Shown: positions 39,202 through 60,990, counted from the stretch's first letter. The stretch is 64,000 nucleotides of DNA from Verrucomicrobiales bacterium (GCA_027490985.1 JAIXXC010000093.1:4293-68292), one strand, 5' to 3'. Numbers and translations are program-made. Notes: a model not told the origin generated them from the sequence alone.

Positions 39202-40905
<1,704 letters not shown>

Positions 40906-45849: not shown

Positions 45850-46778
45850 TGAGAATCCACGGCCAATCCGACTCGTCCGTCTCGTGGAATCCGCTGCGGC
45901 GGCCGGCCGGCCCCTCGGGCGGCACGGCGGCCTTCACGATGATCGAGATCGCCCTGTGCATCGCCGTGGTGGCGATCGCCATGGTGGCCATCATCGGCGT
46001 GCTGCCGGCGGGCCTCAATGTCCAGAAGCAGAACCGCGAGGAGTCGCTGCTCACGCAGGATGCCGAACTGCTCCTCAACGCGCTCCGCGGGGGGCAGACC
46101 CGCTTGCAGGATTTGTTGAACTACGCCGATCGCGTGACCCTGGTGCGTCAGTACCGCGACCGCGCCCCGACCCGGACCAACCATTTCCATGGCCCTCTGG
46201 TGCAGGGCACGCCCGCAGGCTCCGATCCGCTGGTCGACGCCTTCCAGGTGCTGGGCCTGATCAGCCGACCCAAGTACACCCAGGAGGCTTCCTCGGTCAG
46301 CCGGGGCAATCCCGTGGTCGTCACCAATACCGTGCAACTCGAGATGCGGTCCATGAGCGGTTCGATGGCCGACCATCCGATCATCCGCAAGGGCGAGCGC
46401 CGCACGTTGCCCAACGACACCCGCATCGACTTCGCCTTCCGCTACCGGGTCACCTTCGAGACGGTGACCCGACAGCCCGTGCTGGTGCCCGGGGCGACCC
46501 AGTTGCCGGCCGACAGCATGGCCAGCGCCGTCTCCGAGGTCCGGATGATCCTCGAATGGCCGTTGCAGCGCACCGGCACCGATCCCCATCAATATCGGTT
46601 GGGTCTCAATCGTCGGGAGTTCCGGACCGAGGTGCTGGGCCAGCCCACACGCCTGCAGGGCAATGTCCCGCAAGATCTCACCTACTTCGGCGACATCGTC
46701 TACCCGTTCAATCCGGCTCCCGACAATCCGGGGCCCAATGTCATCCATTTCTACCGGTTCCCGCCGGGTGCCCTGTGA
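45849..46778 (+). CDS. minor pseudopilin (GspI-like position)
   Basis: 309-aa ORF whose ATG overlaps the preceding stop by 1 nt (TGATG). It has a class III signal (GGTAA|FTMIEIALCIAVVAIAMVAIIGVLP). Confidence 0.7.
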   Translation: MRIHGQSDSSVSWNPLRRPAGPSGGTAAFTMIEIALCIAVVAIAMVAIIGVLPAGLNVQKQNREESLLTQDAELLLNALRGGQTRLQDLLNYADRVTLVRQYRDRAPTRTNHFHGPLVQGTPAGSDPLVDAFQVLGLISRPKYTQEASSVSRGNPVVVTNTVQLEMRSMSGSMADHPIIRKGERRTLPNDTRIDFAFRYRVTFETVTRQPVLVPGATQLPADSMASAVSEVRMILEWPLQRTGTDPHQYRLGLNRREFRTEVLGQPTRLQGNVPQDLTYFGDIVYPFNPAPDNPGPNVIHFYRFPPGAL

Positions 46779-47907: not shown

Positions 47908-50900
47908 AACGCCTTTCTCCCCAATCCAGCCGGCGCGGCGTGGCGCTGGTCATCACCCTGATCATGCTCTCGGTGGTGACGATCACCGCCGTGTCGTTCC
48001 TGATGGTCGCCCGTCGCGAGCGGGCCGCCGTGGCCGCCGCCGGTGAGCAGGCCGATGCCCGCATCGCCGCCGATGCCGCGCTCAATCGCGCCCGGGCCCG
48101 CATCCTGGCGCAGATCGCCTCCTCCGGCCTCCGGGAAGCCCCGACGCTGCTGGTCTCAACCAACTTCATCGCCCCGTCGTACACCCCGGGTCTTTCGGTC
48201 GCCGGTCAGGCTCTGCCGCTGGGCACGGCCCAGTCCAATCGGTGGTATTCGGCCCTGGCCAACGTGTCCTACCTGTACCAGGGCCGCTCCTTCGATCTCA
48301 ACAACACCGCCGAGATCCTCGAATACCGGCGGATGCTGGCCAACCTCTACTACGATCCGCGCGTCCCCGTGGTCGCGCGCACAGGCCGGTTGGATACCCG
48401 CGCCGATTCCTTCGAAGACCGCTTCTATCTGGATCTGAATCGCAACGGTCGCTTCGACACCAACGGGTACGTCCTTCAGCGCACTGTCACAGGTCAGGCC
48501 ATCGGTACCAATCGGGTCTGGCATGTCGGCGACCCCGAATGGATCGGTGTTCTGGCCGATCCCGATCGTCCGCACTCCGGCAACAACCGCTTCCTCTACC
48601 GCATCGCCTATCTGGTGGTTCCGGCCGATCAGACCGTCGATCTCAATTACGCCCACAATCAGGCCCGCAATCCCGATGACACCTCCGCCAGCCGGTTCTT
48701 CCGCAACCAGGGTGTGGCTCCGTGGGAACTCAATCTGGCGGGTCTGTTCCGCGACCTGAACACCAACCTCTGGCAGACCTACGCCTATTCCACCAATGGG
48801 GCCAACACCGGTCTGACCTTCGATCATGCCCTCAACCTGTGGGCCAACCGCCGCGTGGCGACGGTCACCGGGCGGGCCACGGCCCAGGATATCCTCACCC
48901 AGGATTCCCGGCCCCAGTTGGGCTCGGCCGGAGACTCGACCGCCGCCTCCCGGGTGATGCCGGTGAACGGCGTCGACGATCTGTCCGATGGCCCCCTCGT
49001 TTTGAGTCTGGCCCAGGTGCGCAATCCCGGCCTGCTGAACGACGGTGACAACGTCACCCGTCGTTGGTCGGGCGGCGATGTCTCCAATCCCTACCTCACC
49101 CCGTTCTCGCTGCTCAGCGATCCGACCCTGCTCCCGCTGGGGGTCAACCAGACGATCTGGACCAACCTCGACACCCGTCGCAATGCCTTCGCCGGTCAAT
49201 CGGTCTCTCCGATCCAGGCCTCCAATGCCACCTACAATGCCTACACCTTCTACCGCTTGCTCGGGTCGGTGGGCACCGACAGTTCCGACGGTCGTATCGA
49301 GGTGGGTGTGGATCTGGCCAACCGCTACTATCGCCGGGCCAAGCTCAACCTGAACTATCAGGTGCTCGATCCCGAGGGATCCCAATCGTACAGCGCCAAC
49401 GTGGTCACCACCAACGGGGCCTCGGGCTCGGCGGCCCGTGCGACGGCATTGGTTCCCTGGGTCGCCCGCACCTGGGTCTCGTTGGCGGGCGATCGACTGC
49501 TTCGCAAGGAGTTCTCCAACGGCTTGCCCGAGTTGAGCAATTTCAACTTCTACGATCCGTCCAACCCGAGCACCAAACTGTCGGTGCCCAAGGCGAAGGA
49601 GCCGGCCGCTCATGGCGTGGCCATCGCCGGAAGCTATTGGGTGACCAACGCCGTCGGGTCCCGGGCTCAACGGACTTCGGTTTCCCTCACCAACCACACC
49701 TGGTCGGCCAAGTTGCACCGCTTGCTCCAGTTGGCTGCGAATATCCACGAGGTGCGCACGAACCTCGTCGGGGGTCTCAATGCCGAACCGTTCCCGCCGC
49801 ATGTCTTTCGCCCCACCTTCTATCGCGAAGAGCAGGACGACCCGCGCAACCCGGGCAAGAAGCTGTCTGTCGTCCGCTTGGCCGGGTTGGAAGAAGTGAC
49901 CAATGCCGTCACCCAGGTGCTCAACACCGCCTGGACCAACTGGATGGATTTCGAGAACCCCATCGATGTGGCCAACCTGAGCATCGATCCGTCGGTGCCC
50001 ACCCGGACCAATGTCTTCGGCATCCCGTACGTGGTCGGCACCAAGCAGAACCAGACCGGTCCCACGGCACTGGGTCTGCCCAAGTTCAACGAGGCCTTCT
50101 GGCAAACCCGGGTGCGCACCGGGCGTCGTCTGCTCCTCGAGCGCCAGCCCAACGGGGCTGTGCGTCCCACCAACGAAACCACCCTCAGCGCCCTGGGCGT
50201 GGTGAAGTACGGCCAGTACACCTTCCAAGTCATCAACACCGCCGCCGTCGAGGGGTGGAACTCCTACCTGCAGGCGTTCCCGGTCAACCGACCGCTGCGC
50301 CTCATCGCCACCAACTGGACCGAGATCAGCCTCTACGACGCCAACCTGGCGACCGTGGCCCAGCCGTTGGGTCAGCCCCTCTTCATTCCTCAGCCGCTCA
50401 ATCCGAACTCTCCGTTGAGCGTCCAGAATCCGATGGTCTTCAACCGGACCAACTATGCCGTGCAAGTGGGCAATGTGGTCCGCATCGGCAATGGCAATAC
50501 AGGCTACAAGGCCCGTTGGGACGCCCAGGAATACATTCCGGCGCTCAACACCAACACGGCCTTCGGTCTGGTGTACAACCCGGTGTTGGGGCGCATCTTC
50601 CCCCTCACCGAGACCAACAACCCGCTGGCCATGTTCCCCATGCCGGGGACGCGTCCTGACCGCTTGCTGCCCAACCTGACCCTGGCGGTCACCAATCGGT
50701 TGGTCTTTGCCATCGTCGACGACAGTTTCGTGCCGCCGCGCCTGCTCGACTTCGTGAACCTCAAGAGCGGGACTCTGGAGAGCAATCTGCTCGAGAACCT
50801 GATGTACACGGCCGATGGGTTCATTCCGGGCAATCCGGGCGACGCCGGGATCGATCAGGGTTTCGACAACACCGGAGGCGCTCTGGGTGGCGGCGCCGGT

Positions 50901-52562
50901 TCGGTGCGCCCGCTGCGCATGGCCGAGTTGTGGCAGACCAACTTCTTGGCCGGCCGGGTGATCCCCTCGGGCTTCGAGAACCAGTTCGCCGCCTCGTTGA
51001 ACCCGCTGCGAGTGCTCCAGTTCTGGGAGGCCCCCGTGGTGCCCGGTGTGGTGACCACGGGAGATCCTCGCGTGGATGCCAGTCTCGGGTTGAGGGCCTT
51101 CTTGTACGGCATCAATTCGGTGCCGCGCAGCTCGCAAGTGGTGGCTCGGCGCGAACTCGATCGACTGCTGGCCTCGGGTGGCAACCTCAATGGCAACCGG
51201 ATCCAGGTGGGTTTCAATCCGGTGGGCGAGGTCCATCTCACCGACCGCCGGATGGCCAATGATCCCTTCGTTCATTACACGAAGGAAGACCTGCAGCCCG
51301 GAGGCGTGGTATACACCCATCCCGAGGGCTACTGGAAGTTCTACGCCGACGTCTTTCATGACCGCCGCCCCGAGATGTTCCAGGGGCTCCAATTGGATCC
51401 GAGCATTTCCGAGAGCCGCATCGCCGAGCCGAGTGGCGATTATCTGGTCACCACCGTGAACCGCACCAATCGGGTGGCCGCTCCGTTCAAGTTCATCAAC
51501 GCCTACGCGCCGTGGGCGAGCAGTGCCAATCTCGGCACGGGCATTTCCTCGCCGGCCTTGGCAGTGGACATGGCCTACAAGGATCCGCTGGTGACCAACA
51601 GCGCCGCCTGGTCGTTCCCGACCCCCACCAACGCGTTGGCCTCCATCGGACAGCTGGGCCGCGTTCATCGCGGCACTCCGTGGCAGACGGTGTACCTCAA
51701 GAGTCCGGTGGCCAACCTCGAGCCTGACGACCAGGTCCACATCGCCGACCGCCATCATTGGAAATGGTGGTCGGGCAGCTACGGCACGCATCCCACCAAC
51801 GACTGGGCGTTGCTCGACACCTTCTCCACGGCGCTCACCGAGAACGCCGGTCATGGGCAGATCGGGGTCAACCAGACCAACCTGCCGGCCTGGTCGGCGA
51901 TTCTGTCCGGGGTTCCGGTGTTGCGCCGACTCTCTGGCGATGCCAACACGCTGGTCGCCACGGTGCTGGATCCGGCCGGGGGCAATGGCGCGTCGTTCGT
52001 CCAGAAGATCGTCGCGGGCTACACCAACAACAACGGGCAGTTCCGCCACGGCGTCGTCTCGGGCTTCGTCCACACCAACGGGTGGCCGGGCGATCCGAAC
52101 ATCACCGTCACCGATGGCAACGGGAGGGCGTTCGTCGTTCCGATGCCCCGCCGCTGGCTGCCGCGCTTCCAGTCGGTCGGAGAGATCTGCTCGGTGGAGA
52201 CCTTGTCGGTGGGTTCGCCCTTGTTGGAAAATGTGGAGTACGACGAAACCAACCCGGGCCGCACGTTCCGTCCGGTCCCCGACGAGGTGGTCGAGCGCAT
52301 CCCGCAGCAGATCCTCTCGTTGCTCAAGGCCGAGGAGCCTCGGTACGTGATCTACTCGTGGGCCCAGACCCTGAAGCCGGCGCCCGGAGCGGTGGTCACG
52401 GCCCCGGGTCCGTTCTTCGGGTTGTCCACCAACTACGTTGTCACCGGCGAATTCGCCACCAAGACCGTCCTGCGTTTCGAGGGAGCCCTCTCCACCAACG
52501 CCCCGGTCACCCAAACCCTGCGCACGGTGGTGGAAGACCACCGCGTGCTGACCACGGACTGA
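47904..52562 (+). CDS. giant GspK-like pseudopilin (1552 aa)
   Basis: Internal ATG of ORF 47493..52562 that overlaps the previous stop (ATGA). The N-terminus MKRLSPQSSRRG|VALVITLIMLSVVTITAVSFLMVARRE is the GspK/PilX-type class III signal without Glu+5. About 1500 further residues have no family I can name. Confidence 0.75.
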   Translation: MKRLSPQSSRRGVALVITLIMLSVVTITAVSFLMVARRERAAVAAAGEQADARIAADAALNRARARILAQIASSGLREAPTLLVSTNFIAPSYTPGLSVAGQALPLGTAQSNRWYSALANVSYLYQGRSFDLNNTAEILEYRRMLANLYYDPRVPVVARTGRLDTRADSFEDRFYLDLNRNGRFDTNGYVLQRTVTGQAIGTNRVWHVGDPEWIGVLADPDRPHSGNNRFLYRIAYLVVPADQTVDLNYAHNQARNPDDTSASRFFRNQGVAPWELNLAGLFRDLNTNLWQTYAYSTNGANTGLTFDHALNLWANRRVATVTGRATAQDILTQDSRPQLGSAGDSTAASRVMPVNGVDDLSDGPLVLSLAQVRNPGLLNDGDNVTRRWSGGDVSNPYLTPFSLLSDPTLLPLGVNQTIWTNLDTRRNAFAGQSVSPIQASNATYNAYTFYRLLGSVGTDSSDGRIEVGVDLANRYYRRAKLNLNYQVLDPEGSQSYSANVVTTNGASGSAARATALVPWVARTWVSLAGDRLLRKEFSNGLPELSNFNFYDPSNPSTKLSVPKAKEPAAHGVAIAGSYWVTNAVGSRAQRTSVSLTNHTWSAKLHRLLQLAANIHEVRTNLVGGLNAEPFPPHVFRPTFYREEQDDPRNPGKKLSVVRLAGLEEVTNAVTQVLNTAWTNWMDFENPIDVANLSIDPSVPTRTNVFGIPYVVGTKQNQTGPTALGLPKFNEAFWQTRVRTGRRLLLERQPNGAVRPTNETTLSALGVVKYGQYTFQVINTAAVEGWNSYLQAFPVNRPLRLIATNWTEISLYDANLATVAQPLGQPLFIPQPLNPNSPLSVQNPMVFNRTNYAVQVGNVVRIGNGNTGYKARWDAQEYIPALNTNTAFGLVYNPVLGRIFPLTETNNPLAMFPMPGTRPDRLLPNLTLAVTNRLVFAIVDDSFVPPRLLDFVNLKSGTLESNLLENLMYTADGFIPGNPGDAGIDQGFDNTGGALGGGAGSVRPLRMAELWQTNFLAGRVIPSGFENQFAASLNPLRVLQFWEAPVVPGVVTTGDPRVDASLGLRAFLYGINSVPRSSQVVARRELDRLLASGGNLNGNRIQVGFNPVGEVHLTDRRMANDPFVHYTKEDLQPGGVVYTHPEGYWKFYADVFHDRRPEMFQGLQLDPSISESRIAEPSGDYLVTTVNRTNRVAAPFKFINAYAPWASSANLGTGISSPALAVDMAYKDPLVTNSAAWSFPTPTNALASIGQLGRVHRGTPWQTVYLKSPVANLEPDDQVHIADRHHWKWWSGSYGTHPTNDWALLDTFSTALTENAGHGQIGVNQTNLPAWSAILSGVPVLRRLSGDANTLVATVLDPAGGNGASFVQKIVAGYTNNNGQFRHGVVSGFVHTNGWPGDPNITVTDGNGRAFVVPMPRRWLPRFQSVGEICSVETLSVGSPLLENVEYDETNPGRTFRPVPDEVVERIPQQILSLLKAEEPRYVIYSWAQTLKPAPGAVVTAPGPFFGLSTNYVVTGEFATKTVLRFEGALSTNAPVTQTLRTVVEDHRVLTTD

Positions 52563-52584: not shown

Positions 52585-55500
52585 ATGCGCCCGTCTCGAA
52601 GCCTGATTGTTGCCATCGCCCTGGCGGTGGGTTCCCTGGGGCTGTACCGCTGGGTACAGCCGCCGGCCGCGAATCCCGCCTCCTCGGTCACCGGGCTGAC
52701 CACGACGCCCGTCGACCCGGCCTCGGCCATCGGTCGTTCTCTGGCCGTCTCGGCCCATGTGGCGGCCAAGCGCCTGGCGGTCCGCCCGTTGGAGGCCGGC
52801 CGGCGTCCGGCTCCCCAGGATGCCGAATTTCCGTGGCGCGCGCGCAACACCGCCAAGACGGTGGACCAGTTGCGCTCCGACCCGCGGGCCCTGGTGCTGC
52901 GCAATGCCCTGATCGACACCCGCACGGGTGAACCGCTGCCGTTGCCGGAGGCGCTGGTGGCCGGTCCGGAGCCCGGATTCCACATCGTCCAATTCTCCCA
53001 CGAGCCCGACGCGGAGTCCCGCCGCCGTCTCGAAGAACAACGCCTGCAGGTGGTCTCGTACCTGCCGGTGAACGCCTTCCTGGTCCAGGGCTCCGACGAG
53101 TCGATCGAGCGATTGGCTCTCGATGCCGACATCGCCTCGGTGTCGCCCTGGCATCCGGCCTTCAAGCTGGAGCCCGAGTTGCTGACCCGGGCCATCGACG
53201 GTCGGCCCCTGGAGGCTGGCGATCGGCTGATGCTTTCTCTGACCGATCCCGAGGCCTTCCCGCGCTTGGAATCCCTCGGCGTGCGCGAGGTGTCCCGGCA
53301 ACGCAGCCCGTTCGGAACCCTGGTCACCGTGGACGTGCCGCCCGACGCGCTGGTTTCCCTGGCCCGGTCGCCCGAGGTGCATCTGATCGAGAAGGCCCAT
53401 CGCCGCGAACTCCTCAACGACCGCTCCGCTTACCAGCTGGGCAGCGCCACCGACGTCACCAACACGGCGTCGTATCGCGGGCTCACCGGCAGCAATGTGG
53501 TGGTCAACATCAACGACTCGGGCATCGATTGGACCCACCCCGACCTCACCACCAATCGGGTCTTCACGGTGGGCTCGCAGACCAACCTCCTCACCGACAC
53601 CGACGGTCACGGCACCCACGTGGCCGGCACCATCGCCGGCAGCGGCGCCCGTTCGCTCGAGATCCAGGGGCCGGCCCAGGGTTCGGTGACCAATGCGCAG
53701 CTCCGCGGACTCGCGCCCAACGCCAAGCTCTTCATCCTGCCGATCGACCTTCAGACCGGGCCGACCATCTCCGACGCCTTCCTCCAGGAGCAGGCGGCGA
53801 TGACCAACGCCCTCATCTCGAACAACAGCTGGGGCTACACCGGGGCCTACGAATACAACTCCATCTCGGCGAGCTACGACGCCGCCTCACGGGATGCGCT
53901 GCCCGAGACCACCGGCGAGCAACCCGTGCTCTTCGTCTTCGCCGCCGGCAACTCCGGCCAGGGCGGCAACAACGGCGTCGGCGGACTCCGTGGGTCGGTC
54001 ACCGTTCCGGGCAACGCCAAGAACGTCATCACCGTCGGAGCGCTCGAGAGCAAGCGCAACCTCACCAACGCGGTGGTCCTCGACGATGAGGGGCGTGTCA
54101 TCTGGGCCGGCGGCAAGCAGTTCCGTGAACCGGGCACCAACGCCGAATTGACCACCAATCTCGTCCTGCGGGCGGCCACCGACACCGACACCGAGGTGGC
54201 CAACTTCTCCAGCCGGGGCAACGTGGGCATCGGCATCGAGGGCAGCTACGGGCGCTTCAAGCCCGATGTGGTGGCTCCGGGTTCCCAGATCCTCTCCGCG
54301 CGTTCGGCCCAGTGGAAACTGGAGGACGAATACGACACCAATTCGGTGCAGTACGCCGTGTTCGACGATCTCAATCGCCCTGTGGCCCCGTGGTATCGGT
54401 TCCTCTCCGGCACGAGCATGGCCGCCCCGGCCGTGTCCGGCCTGTTGGCCCAGATCCAGGAGTTCTGGCATCGCCCGGGCATCACCTTGCCGAGGTACAT
54501 CGAGGCGGCGGCCTACAAGGCATTGGTCATCAACAGCGCCCGCCCTTCGGCCGACGTGTACGCCCCCGATTTCCGCTCCGTCATGAACTACACGGGATGG
54601 GGTCAACCGAGCCTGCCCCGCGCCCTCGACAGCGGTGTGCGCCTCACCCGGGCCGATGGCGCCATCGTGGAATTGGCTGGGTTCGCCGGCGAACTCGCCA
54701 CCGGGGCCAGTCAATCGTTGCGCCTCAAGCTCACGACCAATGAAGTCGCCGCCACCGGTGCCTTCCACTTCACGCTGGTGTGGACCGATCCTCCCGGCAA
54801 TCCCGCCGCGGGCCTCAAGCTGGTCAATGATCTGGACCTCATCGTCTCCAACACCGTCACCGGCGAGGTTTTCGTCGGCAATGATCTGGCCCGAACCGGC
54901 TACACCGCGGGACGTCCGGGAACCAACGCGTTCGAGGTGGTCGAAGCGGGTGTGACCAATTCGGTCTTCGACTCGGTCAACAATGTCGAACGCGTGGTGC
55001 TCGAGCCGCCGCTGGCCCCGGAATATGTCATCCACGTGGTGGCCCGCCGGGTCAACGTCAACGCCCTGGCCTCCCGCGAGTTCCAGAATCTCCAGAACCG
55101 CACCAACATCGTCCAAGACTTCGTGGTGGCCCTCTCGTCCGATGCGGCCTCCGACAACGCCATCGTGGCGACCGCCGAGTATGTCACCGCGTCGTCCGGC
55201 GGGGGCTTCGGCGTGGTCCAGCCGCCGCCGATCTCCGTGGTGGCCACCAACGGCATCCCCGTGTCGGCCTCCCGCGTCGGCGCCCAGTCTCCTCTGGTCG
55301 GGGGCGCGGCCGGTCAGTCGGCGCAATGGCATTTCTTCGTCTTCACCAACCTCTTCAATGCGGAGGCGGCGGCGGCCACGGGCTTGACCAACGGCCAGTA
55401 TGTCGAGTTCGTCATCTCGTCGGCGGCCAATCTGGCGCGGCCCCGCGGCCCCGGCGGAACCGGGTCACGGCTGCGGGATCGCGTGCTGGGCCCCGATCTC

Positions 55501-58500
55501 GACCTGTACATGTCCACCGATCCGGGGCTCACCAACCTCCAGGCGTCGGCTCTGGCCTCGGCCTACCGGTCCACCCTCCAAGGCTTCGACGAACGCATCG
55601 AGATCACCAACGCCCCGGCCAATGGCGAGGTGTATTACATCGGCGTGAAGGCCGAGGATCAGCAGGCCGGTGAATTCGAGTTGGTGGTGCGCAGCAGCGA
55701 CCAGCCCTTCCATGTCCTGGGAGCCAATGGCTACAGCCTGCTCATGACCCCGATCGGCGGCGGGCGGGCGATTCCCGACGGAAGCCCGGACGCTCCCGGA
55801 GTCGTCCGGTATTTCGGCACGGGGCCCTCGGGCATCACCCGGAACGTGACCTTCACCCAGTCGCTCCTCCACGACAACTTCTTCGACCTGCAGGGCACTC
55901 TGATCCACGCCGGATACGGTGTGACCATCAACAATCGCCGATCCATCCGCGACTACGGCACCGGCCTCACCCAGGTCTCGGGTCCGGTGATGGGTCTGTA
56001 CGATGACATCCCGGGCCTGAGGTTCCCGGGGGGGCAGCCGACCGATGGCCCGAGCTCCACGCTCCTCGACTTCTCCGGTCTCGGAAGCACCGGTTCCTGG
56101 AACTACCTGCTGCAGGACGACGTGCTGGGTGGCTCCGGTTCCTTGACCTCGGTGCAGCTCCAGGTGCAGCCGCAGGTGTTGCCCGCCTTCGATCAGCGGG
56201 TCTTCGAGAATATCTGTCTGGGGCCGCAGGCCTACGACTTCCGGCTGCGGATCGTGCCGCCGGATGCCAGCCGGCTGATCATCGAGGTGACCAACATGGT
56301 CCCGGCCAACTTGCCCCTCGAGGTGTACATCCGCCGCGAGGCCTTTCCCGATCCCGACAATCCGGAGGTCAATGATCGCGTGGCCACCCTCCTGGGGCCG
56401 GGCGTGATCAGCATTTCCGTGCGCGATGTCCCCGCCCTCCAGGCCGGCACCTACTTCGTGCTCTTCCACAACCCCTCCGGCGTGGAGCTGTGCTTCGATG
56501 TGGCCATCTATGGCGAGCGCAATCTCTCGTCGAAATTCACCCGCACCATCGAGGGGCGTTCCGCCTCGCTGGCCGATGTCGCCCGCACCGTGGCCTCGGT
56601 GCAGGTCGACGACGCCCGTCCGGTGTCCGATGTGCAGGTGGGGGTCCGGGCCGAGCACGCCCGCGCGTCCGATCTGGCGCTCCGGTTGGTCACCCCCGGC
56701 GGCGCGAGTGCGCTGCTCTTCGAAAATCGCGGCCTCACCAGCACCAATGGCCTGGGTGGCGTCTTGGTGACCAGCAACTACCAGCACGTGGCCTTGTCGC
56801 TCGACCGGGCCGGCGGCGTCGCCCGCATCTACTTCAATGGCGAGGTGGTGGCCGAACAGGCCGTTCAACTCTCGCCCAGCAATACGCCCACCTCGTTCCA
56901 TCTGGGATCGCTGGGGTCGGCCAACCTGCCGGGCAGCCCGATCCAGCTGGATGACTTCGGCCTCTGGCGCCGTTCGTTGCGCGAGGCGGAGATCCGTCAG
57001 ATCTACGATGAGGGCACCTTCGGCCGGGCCAAGGCGACCAACCTGGCCACGGCCGGATTGGCGGCGCTGTGGCCGCTGGACCGCTTCGGGGTGGATACCA
57101 TCGCCGGTCAGACCATCAGCAGCGTGGGCACCACGGTGGCCGGTCAGATGAACTTCGGAATGCGCCAGACGGGGACCGGCACCGGCGCCATCTCCACCGA
57201 CTCCCGCATCCGGGACATCGGCAACCTTCCGGGATTGACCCTCGAGGGTTGGATCAAGCCCGTCTCGGGCAATGAGCGGCTCATCGTCGGCGGCTGGTAT
57301 GACGCCGCCAACAAACGCACCGGTCCCGCCTTGTTCGTGGGTCAGGCCGCGCCCCTGGGCAACGGACCGGGTTCCCTGAGTGCCATCTTCCAGGATGCCA
57401 ATGGCAATCGGGTCGTCCTGAGCACCCCTTCAGGTCTCTTTCCGACCGGTGGTGTGGTCACCAACCGCGCGTTCGCGGTCTTCGGCGACAGCACCAATGG
57501 CGTCTACACCCCGATCAAGTTCGCCCCGACGCCCTACCTGAGCCGCATCGTGCCCCAGGTCCTCTACTCCAACGACTGGGAGACCCTCACTCCGGGCGAG
57601 TATGTCGCCGGTACCAACAGCCTCGAAGGGTGGGTCGTGCTCACCAACCGGGTGTCGATTCTGGCCGGGGGCGCCGAGGGTCAGGTGCTCGACCTGCGCA
57701 ATGCCGCGGTGGAGCGTCAATTCGACTTGAACATCGGTCAGGCCTACCGGCTGGCCTTCACCAGTCGCAAGTCGCCCACGGCCAAGACCGCGGTCAATGC
57801 CCAGGTCTGGGTCGATGGGTCCAGCGTCCTGCGGGTCGACAGCACGCCGGGTTGGGTCACCAACACGGCCTCCTTCGTGGCCCGTTCGTCACGCTCGGCC
57901 GTGGGCTTCGTCTCCACGTCGCCGCCCGCGTCGAACACCAATTTCCCGGCCGGCCTCGAGATCGGGCAGGTGTGGCTCGACCAGGATGGGTCGCCGCTGG
58001 TGTACCAGCCCGAAGAGCCCCTGCGCCCGTTGATGGGACAGCCCGGCACCGGGCTCTGGCAGTTGCAGACCACCGATGCCCGGGGTGGCGAATCGGGGCT
58101 GCTGCTCGACTGGCAGTTGCGCTTCACGTTCATGCCGACCAACCCGCCGACCTTCCGGTTGACCAACGGCATCGCCTTCACCACCAACATCGTGGGTGCG
58201 GATATCCGCTATTTCGTGGTCGATGTGCCGTTGGAGGCCGAACGGGCCACCAACACCCTCATCAACGTCTCCGGCGGCCCCTTGACGATGCTGTACAGCG
58301 CTTCGGGTCTGCCCGATGCCACCGAATCGGACACGGTCACCGTGGTCTCGGGTCTGGCGGCCGGCCAGGCGTTCGCCGGCACGCTCGACTCCAACCTCCC
58401 GCCGCTCCTGCCTCGCGGTCAGCGCTATTACCTGGCGGTCCGGGGAGCCGGAGGCACGTCGTCCAACCAGTTCTCGTTGCAGGCCGATTTCGGAGTGCGC

Positions 58501-60873
58501 ATCACCCCGCTGACCCACCGCATCGCCATCCGGGCCACCAACACCGCACCGATTCTGCAGGAGTACTACTCGTACCAGGTGCCGACCAGCAACGTGCTCG
58601 GAGTCACCTTCACCGTCACGGGCCAGACCCGCGATGTGGATCTGTACGCGGTGCGGGCTCCGAAGCTCCCGGGCGTGGGTCAATACGATTACGCCTCGGT
58701 GACACCGGATGGCACGAATGAGACCCTGGTCATCCACCTCGACAGTCAACCGGTCGCCCTGGCTCCGGGACTGTGGTACCTCGCGGTCACCAATACCTCG
58801 GCCATTCCCGGGGCCGCTTACAGCATCATGGTCGTCGAGCAGCGCGGCCGCATCCAGGAGTTGAAGCCGGGTCAATCCGTCACCGCCAGCCATACCGGCA
58901 CCGACGACGACTACTACTACGTCACCCTGCCCGACGATGCGTCGGCTCTGCGGGTGCGCACGCGCGGAGCGGCTCAAGACCTGATCCTCAGTTCCCGCAG
59001 CCGGCTCCCGGTGCCGACCCCCACCAGCTTCGAATACCGGAGCGACACGGTCGGCTCGGGCGATGAGGACCTGCTCGTGACCACCAACTCCACTCCCGTC
59101 GCCCTGGCGGGTGGACGGTGGTATTTCGCCGTGACCAGCGTCGATGGCTTGCCCGGGCCCTACACGATCTCGGCCGACCTGCGTCTCAAGGACGCCGTGT
59201 TCGAGACGTTGACCAACGAGTTGTGGTTCGAGGCCCAGGCCACCAACGGTCCGGTGGATCTCGACTTCGTCTTCCGCAATCCGGGCGAGGTGAGTGGCAT
59301 CACCTTCGAGCTCGACCAGTTGACCGGCGAGGCCGACCTGGCGGTCAGCCCCGACGAGCCTCTGCCCTTGTCGGCGGTGTCCTTCGCCAATGCCCAGCCG
59401 GGCACCCAGTCCGAGCGGGTCACGGTGCTGGCCGGTCGTGATCTGCCTTCGCTGGGGCGCGATTGGTATCTCCGCGTCCGCCTGCCCTCGACGGGGCCCG
59501 TGCGCTTCCGCATCCGGGCCAGTCTCAATCGTCCGCCGGTGTGGACCGATGTGGGCACGCGCCGGGTGACCGAGGGGCTCCGCCTGTCTCTCACGCTCAA
59601 GGCGACCGATCCCGATCCCTATGGGCAGACGGTGACCTATGGTCTGGTGGCAGGTCCGGCGGGCCTCACGGTGAGCACCAACGGTGTGCTGACGTGGCAA
59701 CCCACCGAGGCGCAGGGTCCGAGCACCAATCGGGTGATCGTCTTCGCCACCGACGGGCTGATGTCGGCGACCAACGAGTTCACCATCCTGGTCCGTGAGT
59801 CGAACCAGCCGCCGGTATGGACCAACCCGGGAACGCGGAAGATCACCGAGGGTTTGCTGGCGTCGTTCCAACTGGTGGCCACGGATGCCGACCTGCCGGT
59901 GCAGTCGCTGGTCTTCGGATTGGTGAAGGGTCCGGACGGGCTCACCGTGAGCACCAACGGTCTGGTCAATTGGCAGCCCACCGAGGCGCAGGGGCCGAGC
60001 ACCAATCGGGTGACCGTGACCGTGAGCGATGGTGGGGTGACGGTGCCGCAGGACTTCGACATCATCGTGCGCGAATCCAACCGGTTGCCCGTGTGGGTGA
60101 CGCTCATCACCACGCGTCGGGTGGCCGAAGGTTCGCTGCTGTCCTTCAATGTCCAGGCCACCGACAGCGATCTTCCGGCACAGCCACTGACCTATCGTCT
60201 GCTCAATGGCCCGACCGGTCTGGTTGTCACGACCAACGGCCTGGTGTCCTGGACCCCGACCGAGGCCCAGGGCCCCAGCACCAATCGGGTCCGCATCGGA
60301 GTCGGTGACGGCGTGGGCAACATTTCCCAGGAGTTCGACATCATCGTGGCCGAGCGCAATCAGCCGCCGGTGTGGACCAACCCGGGCACGCGCCGGGTGA
60401 CCGAGGGTCTGCAGTTGACCTTCACCCTGAAGGCCACCGATGCCGACCTGCCGGTCCAGACGCTGAGTTATTCGCTGGTCCAGGGTCCTGCCGGACTGAA
60501 GGTGTCGACCAATGGTGTGCTGTCCTGGAAGCCGACCGCGGCCCAGGGGCCCAGCACCAACCGTGTCCAGGTGAGTGTGAGCGACGGCGTCGTCTCGGTG
60601 GCGCAGGAGTTCAACATCGTGGTCCAGGAGCCGCCGGCGGTCGAGGCCCGCCTGACCCTGGTGCTCACGTCGCCGAACGGATTCGAGATCGTCTTCGTGG
60701 GTCCGTTTGGCGGTCAGTACATCCTGCAACAGAGCGCTTCACTCGACGGGCCTTGGGTGGCCGTGCCGGGAGTCCAGAAACCCCTCACCGCGGCGGGCTT
60801 GAACGAGCCTCTCAAGGTGGCCTTGCCGGCCACGGCCTCGCCTGAGGCCTTCTACCGCTTCACCAAGCCTTGA
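52585..60873 (+). CDS. giant secreted multidomain subtilisin (S8) - P-domain - LamG - PPC - cadherin-like protein (2762 aa)
   Basis: It starts 22 nt after the GspK-like gene and has an N-terminal signal/anchor and two I9-like propeptide modules. The S8 triad motifs are NINDSGIDWTHPDL (Asp), DGHGTHVAGTIAG (His), NNSWG (Asn) and SGTSMAAPAVSGLLAQ (Ser). Further modules are proprotein-convertase P-domain-like segments (VQVGVRAEHARASDLALRLVTPGG; GLWQLQTTDARGGESGLLLDWQLRF), LamG-like modules, several PPC-like modules and 4 tandem cadherin-like repeats. Confidence 0.9.
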   Translation: MRPSRSLIVAIALAVGSLGLYRWVQPPAANPASSVTGLTTTPVDPASAIGRSLAVSAHVAAKRLAVRPLEAGRRPAPQDAEFPWRARNTAKTVDQLRSDPRALVLRNALIDTRTGEPLPLPEALVAGPEPGFHIVQFSHEPDAESRRRLEEQRLQVVSYLPVNAFLVQGSDESIERLALDADIASVSPWHPAFKLEPELLTRAIDGRPLEAGDRLMLSLTDPEAFPRLESLGVREVSRQRSPFGTLVTVDVPPDALVSLARSPEVHLIEKAHRRELLNDRSAYQLGSATDVTNTASYRGLTGSNVVVNINDSGIDWTHPDLTTNRVFTVGSQTNLLTDTDGHGTHVAGTIAGSGARSLEIQGPAQGSVTNAQLRGLAPNAKLFILPIDLQTGPTISDAFLQEQAAMTNALISNNSWGYTGAYEYNSISASYDAASRDALPETTGEQPVLFVFAAGNSGQGGNNGVGGLRGSVTVPGNAKNVITVGALESKRNLTNAVVLDDEGRVIWAGGKQFREPGTNAELTTNLVLRAATDTDTEVANFSSRGNVGIGIEGSYGRFKPDVVAPGSQILSARSAQWKLEDEYDTNSVQYAVFDDLNRPVAPWYRFLSGTSMAAPAVSGLLAQIQEFWHRPGITLPRYIEAAAYKALVINSARPSADVYAPDFRSVMNYTGWGQPSLPRALDSGVRLTRADGAIVELAGFAGELATGASQSLRLKLTTNEVAATGAFHFTLVWTDPPGNPAAGLKLVNDLDLIVSNTVTGEVFVGNDLARTGYTAGRPGTNAFEVVEAGVTNSVFDSVNNVERVVLEPPLAPEYVIHVVARRVNVNALASREFQNLQNRTNIVQDFVVALSSDAASDNAIVATAEYVTASSGGGFGVVQPPPISVVATNGIPVSASRVGAQSPLVGGAAGQSAQWHFFVFTNLFNAEAAAATGLTNGQYVEFVISSAANLARPRGPGGTGSRLRDRVLGPDLDLYMSTDPGLTNLQASALASAYRSTLQGFDERIEITNAPANGEVYYIGVKAEDQQAGEFELVVRSSDQPFHVLGANGYSLLMTPIGGGRAIPDGSPDAPGVVRYFGTGPSGITRNVTFTQSLLHDNFFDLQGTLIHAGYGVTINNRRSIRDYGTGLTQVSGPVMGLYDDIPGLRFPGGQPTDGPSSTLLDFSGLGSTGSWNYLLQDDVLGGSGSLTSVQLQVQPQVLPAFDQRVFENICLGPQAYDFRLRIVPPDASRLIIEVTNMVPANLPLEVYIRREAFPDPDNPEVNDRVATLLGPGVISISVRDVPALQAGTYFVLFHNPSGVELCFDVAIYGERNLSSKFTRTIEGRSASLADVARTVASVQVDDARPVSDVQVGVRAEHARASDLALRLVTPGGASALLFENRGLTSTNGLGGVLVTSNYQHVALSLDRAGGVARIYFNGEVVAEQAVQLSPSNTPTSFHLGSLGSANLPGSPIQLDDFGLWRRSLREAEIRQIYDEGTFGRAKATNLATAGLAALWPLDRFGVDTIAGQTISSVGTTVAGQMNFGMRQTGTGTGAISTDSRIRDIGNLPGLTLEGWIKPVSGNERLIVGGWYDAANKRTGPALFVGQAAPLGNGPGSLSAIFQDANGNRVVLSTPSGLFPTGGVVTNRAFAVFGDSTNGVYTPIKFAPTPYLSRIVPQVLYSNDWETLTPGEYVAGTNSLEGWVVLTNRVSILAGGAEGQVLDLRNAAVERQFDLNIGQAYRLAFTSRKSPTAKTAVNAQVWVDGSSVLRVDSTPGWVTNTASFVARSSRSAVGFVSTSPPASNTNFPAGLEIGQVWLDQDGSPLVYQPEEPLRPLMGQPGTGLWQLQTTDARGGESGLLLDWQLRFTFMPTNPPTFRLTNGIAFTTNIVGADIRYFVVDVPLEAERATNTLINVSGGPLTMLYSASGLPDATESDTVTVVSGLAAGQAFAGTLDSNLPPLLPRGQRYYLAVRGAGGTSSNQFSLQADFGVRITPLTHRIAIRATNTAPILQEYYSYQVPTSNVLGVTFTVTGQTRDVDLYAVRAPKLPGVGQYDYASVTPDGTNETLVIHLDSQPVALAPGLWYLAVTNTSAIPGAAYSIMVVEQRGRIQELKPGQSVTASHTGTDDDYYYVTLPDDASALRVRTRGAAQDLILSSRSRLPVPTPTSFEYRSDTVGSGDEDLLVTTNSTPVALAGGRWYFAVTSVDGLPGPYTISADLRLKDAVFETLTNELWFEAQATNGPVDLDFVFRNPGEVSGITFELDQLTGEADLAVSPDEPLPLSAVSFANAQPGTQSERVTVLAGRDLPSLGRDWYLRVRLPSTGPVRFRIRASLNRPPVWTDVGTRRVTEGLRLSLTLKATDPDPYGQTVTYGLVAGPAGLTVSTNGVLTWQPTEAQGPSTNRVIVFATDGLMSATNEFTILVRESNQPPVWTNPGTRKITEGLLASFQLVATDADLPVQSLVFGLVKGPDGLTVSTNGLVNWQPTEAQGPSTNRVTVTVSDGGVTVPQDFDIIVRESNRLPVWVTLITTRRVAEGSLLSFNVQATDSDLPAQPLTYRLLNGPTGLVVTTNGLVSWTPTEAQGPSTNRVRIGVGDGVGNISQEFDIIVAERNQPPVWTNPGTRRVTEGLQLTFTLKATDADLPVQTLSYSLVQGPAGLKVSTNGVLSWKPTAAQGPSTNRVQVSVSDGVVSVAQEFNIVVQEPPAVEARLTLVLTSPNGFEIVFVGPFGGQYILQQSASLDGPWVAVPGVQKPLTAAGLNEPLKVALPATASPEAFYRFTKP
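59527..60630 (+). repeat. four tandem ~276-nt coding repeats (cadherin-like / He_PIG-type Ig domains) inside the giant S8 gene
   Basis: Repeat units start at 59527, 59803, 60079 and 60358. Each encodes N(Q/R)PPVWTxxGTRxxTEGxxLxFxLxATDxDLPxQxLxYxLVxGPxGLxVSTNGxLxWxPTEAQGPSTNRVxVxVxDG...FxIxV. Long near-identical nucleotide stretches occur between units (e.g. CCCACCGAGGCGCAGGG.CCGAGCACCAATCGGGTGA). Confidence 0.9.
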
Positions 60874-60883
60874 GTCGGACCCT

Positions 60884-60909
60884 GGCCTGTCTCCGTTCGG
60901 AGACGGGCC
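60884..60909 (+). terminator. strong hairpin after the giant S8 gene (convergent with mtnA)
   Basis: GGCCTGTCTCC-GTTC-GGAGACGGGCC forms an 11-bp stem with one G-U pair and a tetraloop. It starts 11 nt after the stop. The T-run (ATTTT) is only 14 nt further on, so this is not a textbook intrinsic terminator. Confidence 0.5.
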
Positions 60910-60990
60910 GGGTGCTCCTGCATTTTGGGTCGGCCACCTGGGCCAGGTGATTCCGGTTGGGTCGGGCGGATCCGAGGAGCGAGTCCGCGG

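What the first reader, a model, noticed from the sequence alone, without database searches (positions are those of the whole stretch)
52585..60873. 2762-aa subtilisin-P-domain-LamG-PPC-cadherin-like protein encoded as the last gene of the pseudopilin operon
The catalytic Asp/His/Asn/Ser motifs of an S8 peptidase are intact, so it is probably active. They are preceded by two I9-like propeptide modules. They are followed by kexin-type P-domain-like segments, LamG-like modules, several PPC-like beta-sandwiches and four cadherin-like repeats. The gene starts 22 nt after the giant GspK-like gene with no terminator between them.

A secreton locus with an adjacent dedicated substrate gene has a classic precedent in the pul cluster with pulA. 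The adhesin-like architecture and the presence of PilT also allow a model in which the protease is displayed on or with the filament. Either way, a protease of this size and architecture tied to a type IV filament operon is not a described arrangement as far as I know.
Basis: partly seen in the sequence, partly recalled or inferred. Interest (0 to 1): 0.7.

Follow-up and report, generated by a model that had tools for sequence, protein, structure and literature searches.

The report
Giant protease partnered with pilus tip genes
A 2762-residue subtilisin-type protease is the last, strictly conserved gene of a pilus gene cassette found in hundreds of Verrucomicrobiota. It sits where other bacteria encode their pilus-tip adhesin, so it is probably carried out of the cell on or by the filament.

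Summary
ORF 52585-60873 (+) encodes a 2762-aa S8 subtilase with the Asp/His/Asn/Ser catalytic residues intact. It starts 22 nt after a 1552-aa GspK-type pseudopilin gene and ends at a strong hairpin facing a convergent gene.

- Seeded on the protease, 58 of 60 loci have the giant pseudopilin gene directly upstream, and 47 of 49 have all five smaller pseudopilin genes.
- Seeded on the giant pseudopilin, 49 of 49 loci have the protease directly downstream.
- This holds down to about 30-40% identity.

The conserved unit is a BrnT/BrnA-like pair, five pseudopilins in G/G/H/I/J order, the giant K-type pilin and the S8 protease. It usually follows PilT, PilB/GspE and PilC/GspF genes.

The protease occupies the slot taken by PilY1/PilC and MshQ, immediately after the I-J-K pilins. 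It has none of their domains.

My best reading is a filament-tip partner that is exported with the tip complex. Whether it stays on the tip or is released like a type II secretion cargo is unresolved.

I class it as a new variant of a known kind. It is uncharacterised, widespread and testable.

The parts
36235..37956 (+). PilB/GspE-like extension ATPase 1 with an MshEN N-terminal domain
   Evidence: Pfam T2SSE plus MshEN. NCBIfam PilB 619 bits and GspE 593 bits, both just under their cut-offs.
37990..39177 (+). PilT-family retraction ATPase
   Evidence: NCBIfam pilT_fam 438.6 bits against a cut-off of 319.1. 76-94% identical in related loci.
39202..40905 (+). PilB/GspE-like extension ATPase 2 with an MshEN domain
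40952..42322 (+). PilC/GspF platform protein
   Evidence: Pfam T2SSF x2. NCBIfam PilC/GspF hits below cut-offs. Lies upstream of the cassette in 20 of 25 giant-seeded loci with enough flank.
42472..42759 (+). Small conserved protein A (95 aa), weakly BrnT-toxin-like
   Evidence: tblastn 70% identity to the L002 orthologue. Present with protein B in 64 of 65 loci. Pfam BrnT_toxin E 0.004, below cut-off.
42961..43242 (+). Small conserved protein B (93 aa), CopG/BrnA-type ribbon-helix-helix
   Evidence: Pfam CopG_antitoxin 41.9 bits against a cut-off of 28. Median 74% identity across loci, the best conserved protein of the cassette.
43277..44062 (+). Pseudopilin 1 (261 aa), GspG/H-like N-terminus, prepilin motif A|FTLLELLVV
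   Evidence: Pfam N_methyl, NCBIfam, N-terminal sequence.
44113..44892 (+). Pseudopilin 2 (259 aa), GspG-like, candidate major subunit
   Evidence: N_methyl plus T2SSG. NCBIfam GspG E 6e-15, below cut-off.
44935..45849 (+). Pseudopilin 3 (304 aa), GspH-like and Verru_Chthon-D-like
   Evidence: TIGR02596 45 bits against a cut-off of 70.
45849..46778 (+). Pseudopilin 4 (309 aa), in the GspI position, motif A|FTMIEIALC
   Evidence: NCBIfam weak Verru_Chthon B and HpsB hits. N-terminal sequence.
46783..47907 (+). Pseudopilin 5 (~374 aa), GspJ-like and Verru_Chthon-C-like, motif G|FSLLELMIA
   Evidence: N_methyl. NCBIfam gspJ and TIGR02599 weak hits. The start is inferred from the end of pseudopilin 4.
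47904..52562 (+). Giant GspK-type tip pseudopilin (1552 aa). N-terminus RRG|VALVITLIMLSVV has no Glu5. Start overlaps the pseudopilin 5 stop (ATGA).
   Evidence: Sequence. The orthologue's N-terminus hits T2SS_GspK, Verru_Chthon_A and ComGG weakly. No Pfam or PDB sequence hit. AF2 of the middle-deleted construct gives pLDDT 68 and pTM 0.67, with a long N-terminal helix and beta strands at both ends. The top Foldseek hit is 3ci0_K GspK but is not significant, E 0.75.
52585..60873 (+). S8 subtilase, 2762 aa (the finding)
52600..52662 (+). N-terminal hydrophobic segment (about residues 6-26): Sec signal or uncleaved signal anchor
   Evidence: Every orthologue has a short basic stretch, then ~19 hydrophobic residues, then W/R-rich residues. 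There is no conserved AXA site.
52972..53424 (+). Two propeptide-like beta-alpha-beta-beta-alpha-beta modules (about residues 130-280)
   Evidence: AF2 secondary structure at pLDDT 60-76. Profile alignment to the Tk-subtilisin propeptide. Foldseek hit to ProN-Tk-SP. Pfam I9 was not detected.
53488..54549 (+). S8 catalytic domain (residues 302-655; D311, H342, N456, S611)
54550..55074 (+). KP-43/SubHal-type beta domain after the catalytic domain (about residues 656-830)
   Evidence: PDB hits 1wmd and 5fax run through their C-terminal domains: phmmer E 7e-20, profile E 5e-43, Foldseek E 2e-8.
56626..56994 (+). P-domain-like segment (1348-1386) followed by a LamG-like segment (1391-1470)
   Evidence: P_proprotein in 18 of 18 orthologues and Laminin_G_3 in 15 of 18.
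57601..57924 (+). Weak choice-of-anchor-C/DUF642-like segment (1673-1780)
   Evidence: NCBIfam TIGR04362 E 4e-8, below cut-off. Pfam DUF642 E 0.03.
58177..59514 (+). Region of three or four PPC-like beta-sandwich modules (about 1865-2310)
   Evidence: Repeated YYxFxVP...DLDL pattern seen by eye. PPC is detected by Pfam in 11 of 18 orthologues but not in this protein.
59527..60636 (+). Four tandem ~92-aa Big_9/cadherin-like Ig repeats (2315-2684). Present only in the window's close clade.
   Evidence: Orthologues of ~2400 aa lack them. Big_9 in 3 of 18.
60643..60870 (+). Family-specific C-terminal ~75-aa module ending in the conserved tail [FY][FY]R[VILF]xxxP
   Evidence: Present at the end of all orthologues, in 1 to 5 or more tandem copies. 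Found in no other ORF in 2.6 Mb of loci. 60 distinct tails share the motif. No Pfam hit; weak CBM32-like PDB hits.
60874..60934 (+). GC-rich hairpin just after the stop codon, a probable terminator between convergent genes
   Evidence: MFE -37.2 kcal/mol, z -4.29. Sequence.

Best explanation
**What it is.** The ORF encodes a catalytically competent multidomain subtilase. It is a dedicated component of a Verrucomicrobiota-specific type IV filament cassette. It sits in the gene slot directly after the GspI/J/K-type minor pilins, which is where T4aP operons encode PilY1/PilC and MSHA operons encode MshQ.

**Proposed pathway.** The gene order and conservation are shown. Every step below is inferred.
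1. The precursor is inserted or translocated by its N-terminal hydrophobic signal.
2. The two-lobed propeptide folds the catalytic domain and is auto-cleaved. This also frees the ~2400-2500-aa mature protein from the membrane.
3. The mature protein engages the tip complex, made of the 1552-aa GspK-type pilin plus the I- and J-type pilins.
4. PilB/GspE-driven polymerisation carries it through an outer-membrane channel that is encoded elsewhere.
5. Outside the cell it acts as a filament-borne protease and adhesin. The LamG-like, PPC-like, Ig-like and C-terminal modules give reach and binding. PilT-driven retraction pulls the cell and the bound substrate together.
For: **Conserved linkage.**
- Near-obligate synteny in both directions down to ~30-40% identity: 58 of 60, 47 of 49 and 49 of 49 loci.
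- The gap between the giant's stop and the S8 start is mostly 15-60 nt.
- Genes downstream of S8 vary between loci.

**Gene slot.**
- Pilin order is G/G/H/I/J/K, then S8.
- PMC13533445 shows that large non-pilin proteins encoded immediately after pilIJK homologues are tip partners. This is demonstrated for PilC/PilY1 and predicted for MshQ.

**Retraction.** A bona fide PilT gene lies in the same cluster. That fits a retractile pilus better than a type II secretion piston.

**Protein features.**
- Adhesin-like and variable C-terminal architecture, including Big_9 repeats and copy-number variation of the C-terminal module.
- An invariant family-specific C-terminal module and tail.
- Four of 86 orthologues carry Ser-to-Thr at the nucleophile yet keep the cassette position, which suggests a role beyond catalysis.
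Against: - No PilY1/PilC beta-propeller and no detectable MshQ homology.
- The giant K-type pilin appears to end in its own beta strands. In the monomer model DSSP assigns strand to its last residues, as in T2SS GspK, which supplies the final strand in cis. By the logic of PMC13533445 that is the arrangement of systems that release cargo rather than retain an adhesin.
- The conserved C-terminal tail motif also occurs in internal copies of the module. It also occurs in two orphan paralogues that have no pilin genes nearby. It may therefore be only a structural strand.
- No secretin, PilMNOP/GspCLM or prepilin peptidase genes were found among the ORFs I checked in the window.
- No complex modelling was possible.
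Confidence: 0.45

Rival explanations
1. S8 is a released cargo, as PulA is for the pul system. The filament is a short pseudopilus-like piston. The S8 protein is its dedicated exoprotein: it is recognised in the periplasm by the tip complex, pushed through a secretin, and then released as a free or cell-surface-associated protease.
For: - Pseudopilin N-termini match the GspG/H/J/K families best.
- The giant pilin has a GspK-type N-terminus without Glu5, and its own C-terminal strands.
- Subtilases with P, PPC and KP-43-type C-terminal domains are typical secreted enzymes.
- Type IV fimbria-dependent secretion of subtilases is documented in D. nodosus (PMC3480457).
- From established knowledge: the pulA-pul adjacency, and TcpF being carried out by the TCP minor pilin.
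Against: - A PilT retraction ATPase is encoded in the cluster, and canonical T2SS lack one.
- T2SS substrates are rarely in strict one-to-one synteny with the K pseudopilin across ~30% identity.
- The mature protein would be ~290 kDa, which is very large for a folded T2SS cargo.
- The Ser-to-Thr variants keep the gene.
Confidence: 0.33
2. S8 is an envelope-resident processing protease, analogous in role to mycosin. It stays anchored by its N-terminal segment and matures or quality-controls the giant pilin or other cassette proteins. It is not exported.
For: - The N-terminal segment looks more like an uncleaved anchor than a cleavable signal peptide.
- Secretion-system-associated subtilases exist, for example the T7SS mycosin. 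The NCBIfam hit to it reflects only general S8 similarity.
- Strict co-occurrence with a 1300-1600-aa pilin that might need processing.
Against: - About 2000 residues of LamG, PPC, Ig-like and carbohydrate-binding-like modules, with lineage-specific repeat expansion, are not expected for a periplasmic maturase.
- Propeptide autoprocessing would detach the enzyme from the anchor.
- The mycosin model scores 61 bits against a cut-off of 279.
- Ser-to-Thr variants persist.
Confidence: 0.1
3. The link is co-regulation only. S8 is exported by another route and shares only the promoter with the pilus genes, for example in a common surface-colonisation programme.
For: - Two orphan paralogues sit among housekeeping genes.
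- In four loci the ATPase genes are ~7 kb away from the cassette, so the cluster is not indivisible.
Against: - Bidirectional near-100% adjacency to the giant pilin, specifically with 15-60-nt gaps, maintained over deep divergence, is far tighter than regulon-level association.
- No alternative export signal was found (no autotransporter, T9SS or PEP-CTERM hit).
Confidence: 0.05

Closest known systems
PilY1/PilC tip adhesins of type IVa pili (fimU-pilVWXY1 operons)
   Same: - A large, non-pilin, Sec-exported protein.
- Encoded immediately after the GspH/I/J/K-equivalent minor pilins.
- Variable adhesive region, and a PilT-retractile system in the same context.
- A conserved extreme C-terminus.
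   Different: - No PilY1/PilC beta-propeller domain.
- The conserved part is an S8 protease with beta-sandwich modules.
- The partner K-type pilin is 1300-1600 aa and seems to end in its own beta strands.
- Donation of a C-terminal strand in trans is untested here.
MshQ of the MSHA pilus (mshBACDOPQ)
   Same: - Seven-gene parallel: pilins B, A, C, D, O and P followed by a large LamG-containing non-pilin. Here it is pseudopilins 1-5, the giant pilin, then S8 with a LamG-like segment.
- The ATPases carry MshEN domains, as MshE does.
- MshQ is predicted to be a tip partner (PMC13533445).
   Different: No detectable sequence homology to MshQ, which has no protease domain. Here the K-type pilin is giant.
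PulA and the pul type II secretion cluster; T2SS GspK-GspI-GspJ tip (PDB 3CI0)
   Same: - A substrate gene adjacent to its secretion genes.
- G-H-I-J-K pseudopilin order.
- A K-type pilin without Glu5.
- GspK is the top, though non-significant, structural hit for the giant.
   Different: - A PilT gene is present.
- No secretin or GspC/L/M genes in the cluster.
- The substrate-to-K-pilin linkage is obligate.
- The K pilin is about five times larger than GspK.
Dichelobacter nodosus AprV2/AprV5/BprV subtilases
   Same: Subtilisin-like proteases with pre-pro regions and C-terminal extensions. Their optimal secretion needs the type IV fimbrial machinery (PMC3480457).
   Different: Those are ~50-60-kDa enzymes encoded away from the pilus genes. 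No tip-pilin synteny is known.
Omnitrophota giant proteins next to T2SS/T4P-like loci (bioRxiv 10.1101/2023.11.21.568195)
   Same: - The PVC superphylum.
- Very large multidomain proteins, some with N-terminal S8 domains.
- Preceded by a conserved secretion locus with gspE/F and small class III signal-peptide genes.
   Different: - Different phylum, and protein sizes above 10,000 aa.
- Their locus includes gspD and rcpC.
- A different architecture, with no giant GspK-type pilin reported.
Verru_Chthon cassette proteins A-D (TIGR02596, TIGR02598-TIGR02600)
   Same: A Verrucomicrobia cassette of prepilin-type proteins with a ~1300-aa 'A' protein that has a GspK-like N-terminus. The window's pilins hit these models at their N-termini.
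   Different: All scores are far below the curated cut-offs and cover only the N-terminal helix. I do not know whether that cassette includes a subtilase.
KP-43 / SubHal subtilases (PDB 1WMD, 5FAX)
   Same: The closest solved relatives of the catalytic domain and the following beta domain (profile E 5e-43).
   Different: Those are 434-aa stand-alone Bacillus exoenzymes. The window protein adds ~2000 further residues and a double propeptide.

Membership tests
Peptidase S8 (subtilases) | Asp-His-Ser triad in subtilase order plus the oxyanion Asn; match to PF00082 above threshold | tested here: met
   PF00082 scores 145.7 bits against a cut-off of 21.8. D311, H342, N456 and S611 are invariant in 18 orthologues. 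D, H and N are kept in 86 of 86 and Ser in 82 of 86 wider orthologues.
Peptidase S8 (subtilases) | N-terminal I9-type propeptide acting as an intramolecular chaperone | tested here: inconclusive
   No Pfam I9 hit. AF2 shows two beta-alpha-beta-beta-alpha-beta modules at pLDDT 60-76 in a poor overall model. The profile aligns to the Tk-subtilisin propeptide. Foldseek hits ProN-Tk-SP.
Kexin/furin proprotein convertases (S8B) | Complete P-domain directly following the catalytic domain | tested here: not met
   The P_proprotein match is partial (profile 2-41 of 86) and lies ~700 residues after the catalytic domain. The domain that follows directly is KP-43-like.
PilY1/PilC tip adhesins | C-terminal PilY1/PilC beta-propeller domain | tested here: not met
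   No such Pfam or NCBIfam hit on the whole protein or on 18 orthologues.
PilY1/PilC tip adhesins | Gene immediately downstream of the PilI/J/K-type minor pilins | tested here: met
   Order is pseudopilin 4 (I-like), pseudopilin 5 (J-like), giant (K-like), then S8. Conserved in 47 of 49 and 49 of 49 loci.
PilY1/PilC tip adhesins | The last ~10 residues add a beta strand in trans to the PilK-type pilin | not testable with these tools
   Only single-chain prediction was available. The tail [FY][FY]R[VILF]xxxP is conserved, but it also occurs in internal repeats and in orphan paralogues.
MshQ (MSHA) | Sequence homology to MshQ | tested here: not met
   No MshQ family appears among the NCBIfam or Pfam hits. 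Only a borderline Laminin_G_3 segment is shared in kind.
T2SS exoprotein (PulA-like dedicated substrate) | Export depends on the adjacent machinery, followed by release from the cell | not testable with these tools
   This needs secretome or mutant work. Adjacency and an N-terminal export signal are present.
GspK-type minor pseudopilin (the giant upstream gene) | Prepilin-like N-terminus lacking Glu5, plus the GspK fold (pilin sheet with an inserted alpha domain) | tested here: inconclusive
   N-terminus is RRG|VALVITLIML. An orthologue hits NF037980 T2SS_GspK at E 8e-5, N-terminus only and below cut-off. No Pfam T2SSK hit. Foldseek rank 1 is 3ci0_K but at E 0.75.
Verru_Chthon cassette (TIGR02596, TIGR02598-TIGR02600) | Scores above the curated cut-offs for proteins A-D | tested here: not met
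   Best scores against cut-offs are 45 vs 70 (D), 22 vs 51 (B), 23 vs 257 (C) and 30 vs 332 (A, in an orthologue).
T7SS mycosin | TIGR03921 above cut-off | tested here: not met
   61 bits against a cut-off of 278.75.

The most novel reading that the evidence does not exclude
This would be a retractile type IV pilus whose tip carries an active ~290-kDa subtilase, an enzymatically armed tip. The giant GspK-type pilin would serve as a dedicated platform for it. Freshwater and soil Verrucomicrobiota could then harpoon proteinaceous particles or other cells, digest them at the point of contact and reel them in. It would be the first case of a catalytic enzyme as the PilY1-slot tip subunit of a type IV filament.
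Probability: 0.3. Interest if true: 0.8.

Novelty: new variant of a known kind. Interest (0 to 1): 0.62.

Why it matters
Type IV filaments are usually described as either adhesive and motile pili with a tip adhesin, or secretion pistons that release cargo. This cassette has the gene order of both. It has a PilT motor, a K-type tip pilin enlarged about fivefold, and a conserved protease in the tip-partner slot.

If the protease rides on the tip, filament tips can carry enzymes, not only adhesins. That would give a mechanism for contact-dependent protein degradation in an abundant but poorly cultured phylum.

If the protease is released, this is an unusually clean one-machine, one-substrate system for studying how tip complexes recognise cargo.

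Either way it names hundreds of 'hypothetical protein' and 'S8 family peptidase' genes and makes a testable prediction.

Tried and rejected
- **AF2 of S8 residues 70-1100.** With a 7-sequence alignment the model was poor: pLDDT 43, with the catalytic domain unresolved. Only the propeptide region was usable.
- **Foldseek of the middle-deleted giant-pilin model.** GspK (3ci0_K) ranked first but at E 0.75, which is not significant. Model coordinates cannot be inspected, so I could not verify that the C-terminal strands pair in cis with the N-terminal sheet.
- **PDB sequence and profile searches with the giant pilin.** Nothing was found.
- **The C-terminal module as a general sorting tag (like PEP-CTERM or the T9SS CTD).** Rejected. 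In 2.6 Mb of loci it occurs only in S8 orthologues. An exhaustive phmmer search found only 12 proteins. There is no Pfam match.
- **Membership of the Verru_Chthon TIGRFAM cassette.** Rejected on scores.
- **The 299-aa ORF 42381-43280 as a gene.** Rejected. The real genes there are two small ORFs.
- **A riboswitch or other known RNA between gspF and the pilins.** No Rfam family reaches threshold.
- **Regex check of catalytic motifs.** Too strict, so I replaced it with an HMM alignment.
- **DNA-level tandem repeat search in the ORF.** None found. The four Ig repeats are visible only at the protein level.
- **Literature searches.** Searches on Verrucomicrobia/pseudopilin/subtilisin, Verru_Chthon and PilY1 with subtilase found no description of this cassette. 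The library covers open-access papers only.
- **A naturally short giant-pilin orthologue (1200 aa or less) for full-length modelling.** None appeared among the 120 best homologues.
Full report
**1. The observation**

The window is 62-70% G+C. ORF 52585-60873 on the plus strand is 2762 codons from an ATG.

Pfam finds the following in it:
- Peptidase_S8 at residues 302-655 (E 2e-42).
- A partial P_proprotein match at 1348-1386.
- A borderline Laminin_G_3 match at 1391-1470.
- Four Big_9 Ig-like repeats, with a weak Cadherin_3 hit.

The four repeats are ~92 aa each and span residues 2315-2684.

An alignment with 17 orthologues of 36-83% identity keeps D311, H342, N456 and S611 invariant. I aligned 86 complete catalytic domains from fetched loci to a family HMM. 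Asp, His and Asn are kept in all 86. Ser is kept in 82, and the other four carry Thr (GTTMAAP, GTTFAAP, GSTFAAA). These are real substitutions, not alignment shifts.

The closest solved relatives are the Bacillus KP-43 and SubHal subtilases. The match runs through their C-terminal beta domain. So the domain directly after the catalytic domain is KP-43-like rather than a kexin P-domain.

Across 18 orthologues, Pfam detects S8 in 18, P_proprotein in 18, Laminin_G_3 in 15, PPC in 11 and Big_9 in only 3. PPC does not reach threshold in the window protein itself.

Pfam does not find an I9 propeptide. An otherwise poor AF2 model (mean pLDDT 43) shows two beta-alpha-beta-beta-alpha-beta modules at protein residues ~132-188 and ~214-270 with pLDDT 60-76. 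The family profile aligns the second module to the Tk-subtilisin propeptide. The two-propeptide claim is therefore plausible but only moderately supported.

**2. The surroundings**

The plus-strand genes upstream are:
- a PilB/GspE-like ATPase with an MshEN domain (36235-37956);
- a PilT-family ATPase that passes NCBIfam's cut-off (37990-39177);
- a second PilB/GspE-like ATPase (39202-40905);
- PilC/GspF (40952-42322);
- five prepilin-type proteins;
- a giant ORF.

The giant's real start is 47904, where its ATG overlaps the previous stop. This gives 1552 aa with the N-terminus MKRLSPQSSRRG|VALVITLIMLSVV. That is the GspK pattern, a prepilin-like signal without Glu5.

Using a low-GC orthologous cassette (L147) with clean ORFs, the N-termini match GspG/H, GspG, GspH, (no match), GspJ and GspK in that order. 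All matches are below the cut-offs.

The giant's stop is at 52562 and the S8 ATG at 52585, a gap of 22 nt with no terminator-like site.

After the S8 stop comes a hairpin of -37 kcal/mol, z -4.3. Then come convergent minus-strand genes for an IF-2B/MtnA-family protein and a DeaD helicase. S8 is therefore the last gene of the plus-strand run.

I found no secretin, PilMNOP/GspCLM or prepilin peptidase among the ORFs I scanned in the window. I did not scan every ORF.

**3. Is the linkage conserved?**

The protease has more than 1500 relatives in the protein collection. The best are 2200-2950 aa and are named at most 'S8 family serine peptidase', from Verrucomicrobiota metagenome-assembled genomes.

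I scanned one genome per species with the S8 family alignment and kept 80 loci. I then ran tblastn of the window's neighbours against them.
- 58 of 60 loci with at least 1.5 kb upstream have a giant-pilin homologue directly upstream on the same strand.
- 47 of 49 loci with at least 9 kb upstream have the giant plus all five pseudopilins in the same order.
- The gap from the giant's stop to the S8 start is mostly 15-60 nt.
- The two exceptions, L079 and L082, are the most divergent hits. They sit among housekeeping genes and are probably paralogues.

I then ran the reverse test, scanning metagenome contigs with an alignment of giant-pilin orthologues.
- 49 of 49 loci with at least 1.5 kb downstream of the giant carry an S8 homologue within 2.5 kb on the same strand.
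- 20 of 25 loci with enough upstream flank carry GspF upstream.

A further relative at 34% identity on a 2.3-Mb contig shows the same cassette.

In four loci the ATPase genes lie ~7 kb downstream of the cassette rather than upstream. Genes downstream of S8 differ between loci.

The conserved unit therefore ends with S8.

**4. What the position means**

Ellison et al. (PNAS 2026, PMC13533445) report the following:
- PilC/PilY1 adhesins are held on the tip because their last ~10 residues add a beta strand to the PilK-type minor pilin.
- MshQ, a ~1200-aa protein encoded immediately after the I-J-K homologues mshD, mshO and mshP, is predicted to do the same.
- T2SS GspK, ComGG and CpaL supply that strand in cis, often after a large insertion.
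- Modelling of tip complexes may reveal unrecognised tip subunits.

The S8 gene sits in exactly that slot. The seven genes from pseudopilin 1 through pseudopilin 5, the giant and S8 parallel mshBACDOPQ one for one. S8 carries a LamG-like segment, as MshQ does. The ATPases carry MshEN domains.

S8 has no PilY1 propeller and no detectable MshQ homology. This is an analogy of position, not family membership.

**5. Features of S8 that bear on mechanism**

*N-terminus.* Every orthologue begins with a short basic stretch and ~19 hydrophobic residues followed by W/R-rich sequence. There is no conserved AXA site. This fits a signal anchor at least as well as a cleavable signal peptide. Propeptide autoprocessing would release the mature enzyme in either case (inference from general subtilase biology).

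*C-terminus.* Every orthologue ends with a ~75-aa module whose last residues follow [FY][FY]R[VILF]xxxP, seen in 60 distinct tails.
- The module occurs in 1 to 5 or more tandem copies.
- In 2.6 Mb of loci it is found in no other ORF.
- An exhaustive search of 1.8 billion representative proteins finds only 12 proteins, some of them other repeat-rich giants.
- It has no Pfam family and only weak CBM32-like PDB hits.
- It is therefore not a general sorting tag.
- The same tail occurs in internal copies and in the two orphan paralogues, so I cannot claim it is a donor strand.

*Variable region.* The region between residue ~2315 and the terminal module varies between clades. The window's clade has four Ig repeats there and other clades have more C-terminal modules. 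This is typical of surface-exposed stalks.

*Ser-to-Thr variants.* The four variants that keep the gene in place hint at a role beyond catalysis.

**6. The giant pilin**

It has no Pfam, NCBIfam or PDB sequence match beyond the N-terminal helix. All 120 best homologues are 'hypothetical' apart from one labelled PilX, and none is short enough to model whole.

I modelled a middle-deleted construct (residues 1-330 joined to 1225-1552) with a 72-sequence alignment. It gave pLDDT 68 and pTM 0.67. The model has:
- a 65-residue N-terminal helix;
- a beta sheet;
- helical segments;
- three long C-terminal strands, the last of which includes the final residues.

Foldseek ranks ETEC GspK (3ci0_K) first, but at E 0.75. 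That is a hint only.

By eye the sequence carries GspK-like motifs, GRxAYxVxPxxxxLDLN and GxxGVNQTN. This comparison is from my own recollection of GspK sequences and was not tested.

The giant thus looks like a GspK whose inserted domain has grown to ~1200 residues, and it probably completes its own sheet in cis. By the logic of PMC13533445 that favours a cargo-type relation over a PilY1-type lock. It does not exclude other docking modes.

**7. Weighing the explanations**

A functional coupling of S8 to this filament seems very likely, about 0.85 by my estimate. I split that between two models.

Tip-associated partner (0.45). It is favoured by:
- the gene slot;
- the PilT gene;
- the adhesin-like variable architecture;
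- the invariant terminal module;
- the Ser-to-Thr variants.

Released cargo (0.33). It is favoured by:
- the GspK-like pilin that appears complete in cis;
- the Gsp-like pilin N-termini;
- the typical exoenzyme domains;
- the D. nodosus precedent.

A periplasmic maturase (0.10) and mere co-regulation (0.05) are less likely, for the reasons given under the rival explanations.

**8. Novelty**

I found no paper describing this cassette. The nearest is the report of Omnitrophota giant proteins, some with N-terminal S8 domains, downstream of T2SS-like loci.

The principle of a large partner gene after pilIJK is known. A subtilase in that slot, together with a 1300-1600-aa K-type pilin and a conserved BrnT/BrnA-like pair, is a new variant.

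Noticed in passing
window 42472-42759 and 42961-43242 (+): Two small genes lie between gspF and the first pseudopilin. One is a weakly BrnT-toxin-like 95-aa protein. The other is a CopG/BrnA-type ribbon-helix-helix 93-aa protein. They head the cassette in 64 of 65 loci. They are its best conserved proteins, with median identity of 64% and 74% against ~40% for the pilins and S8. They may be a domesticated toxin-antitoxin pair acting as the cassette's regulator.
   Followed up: partly
window 42381-43280 (+): The 299-aa ORF listed here is spurious. It is an Arg/Pro-rich out-of-frame reading over the two small genes. Its tblastn hits in other loci come from the small-gene region.
   Followed up: yes
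window 36235-40905 (+): Two paralogous PilB/GspE-like ATPases flank the PilT gene. Both have MshEN domains, a domain known to bind c-di-GMP in MshE. Both score just under the PilB and GspE equivalog cut-offs. At least one distant locus (L150) shows the same GspE-PilT-GspE-GspF order.
   Followed up: partly
L018, L075, L076, L108 (S8 orthologues): The catalytic Ser is replaced by Thr (GTTMAAP, GTTFAAP, GSTFAAA) in 4 of 86 orthologues that otherwise keep Asp, His and Asn. L018, L075 and L108 have the upstream pilin genes; L076 is too short to show its context. These may be pseudo-proteases.
   Followed up: partly
L002, L003, L026, L048: In these loci the cassette from pseudopilins to S8 lies ~7 kb upstream of the GspE-PilT genes, separated by unrelated minus-strand genes (znuABC, fur, ribosomal proteins). 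So the cassette can be uncoupled from the motor genes by rearrangement.
   Followed up: no
L079 9731-15613 and L082 9668-15895: Two orphan S8 paralogues of 1960 and 2075 aa have the same N-terminal anchor and C-terminal tail. They have no pilin genes within 10 kb and are flanked by housekeeping genes.
   Followed up: partly
L053, L065, L118, L161 and others (S8 C-termini): The copy number of the ~75-aa C-terminal module ranges from 1 to about 9 tandem copies between orthologues. The four Big_9 repeats are confined to the window's close clade.
   Followed up: partly
window 30954-36084 (+): A DUF1553 (PSD1) and DUF1501 gene pair lies directly upstream of the filament cluster. From my own knowledge this pair is typical of Planctomycetota and Verrucomicrobiota. 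It has no evident link to the cassette.
   Followed up: no
window 60874-60934: A strong GC-rich hairpin lies 8 nt after the S8 stop, between convergent genes. It has only a short, displaced U-run, so it did not register in the terminator scan.
   Followed up: yes
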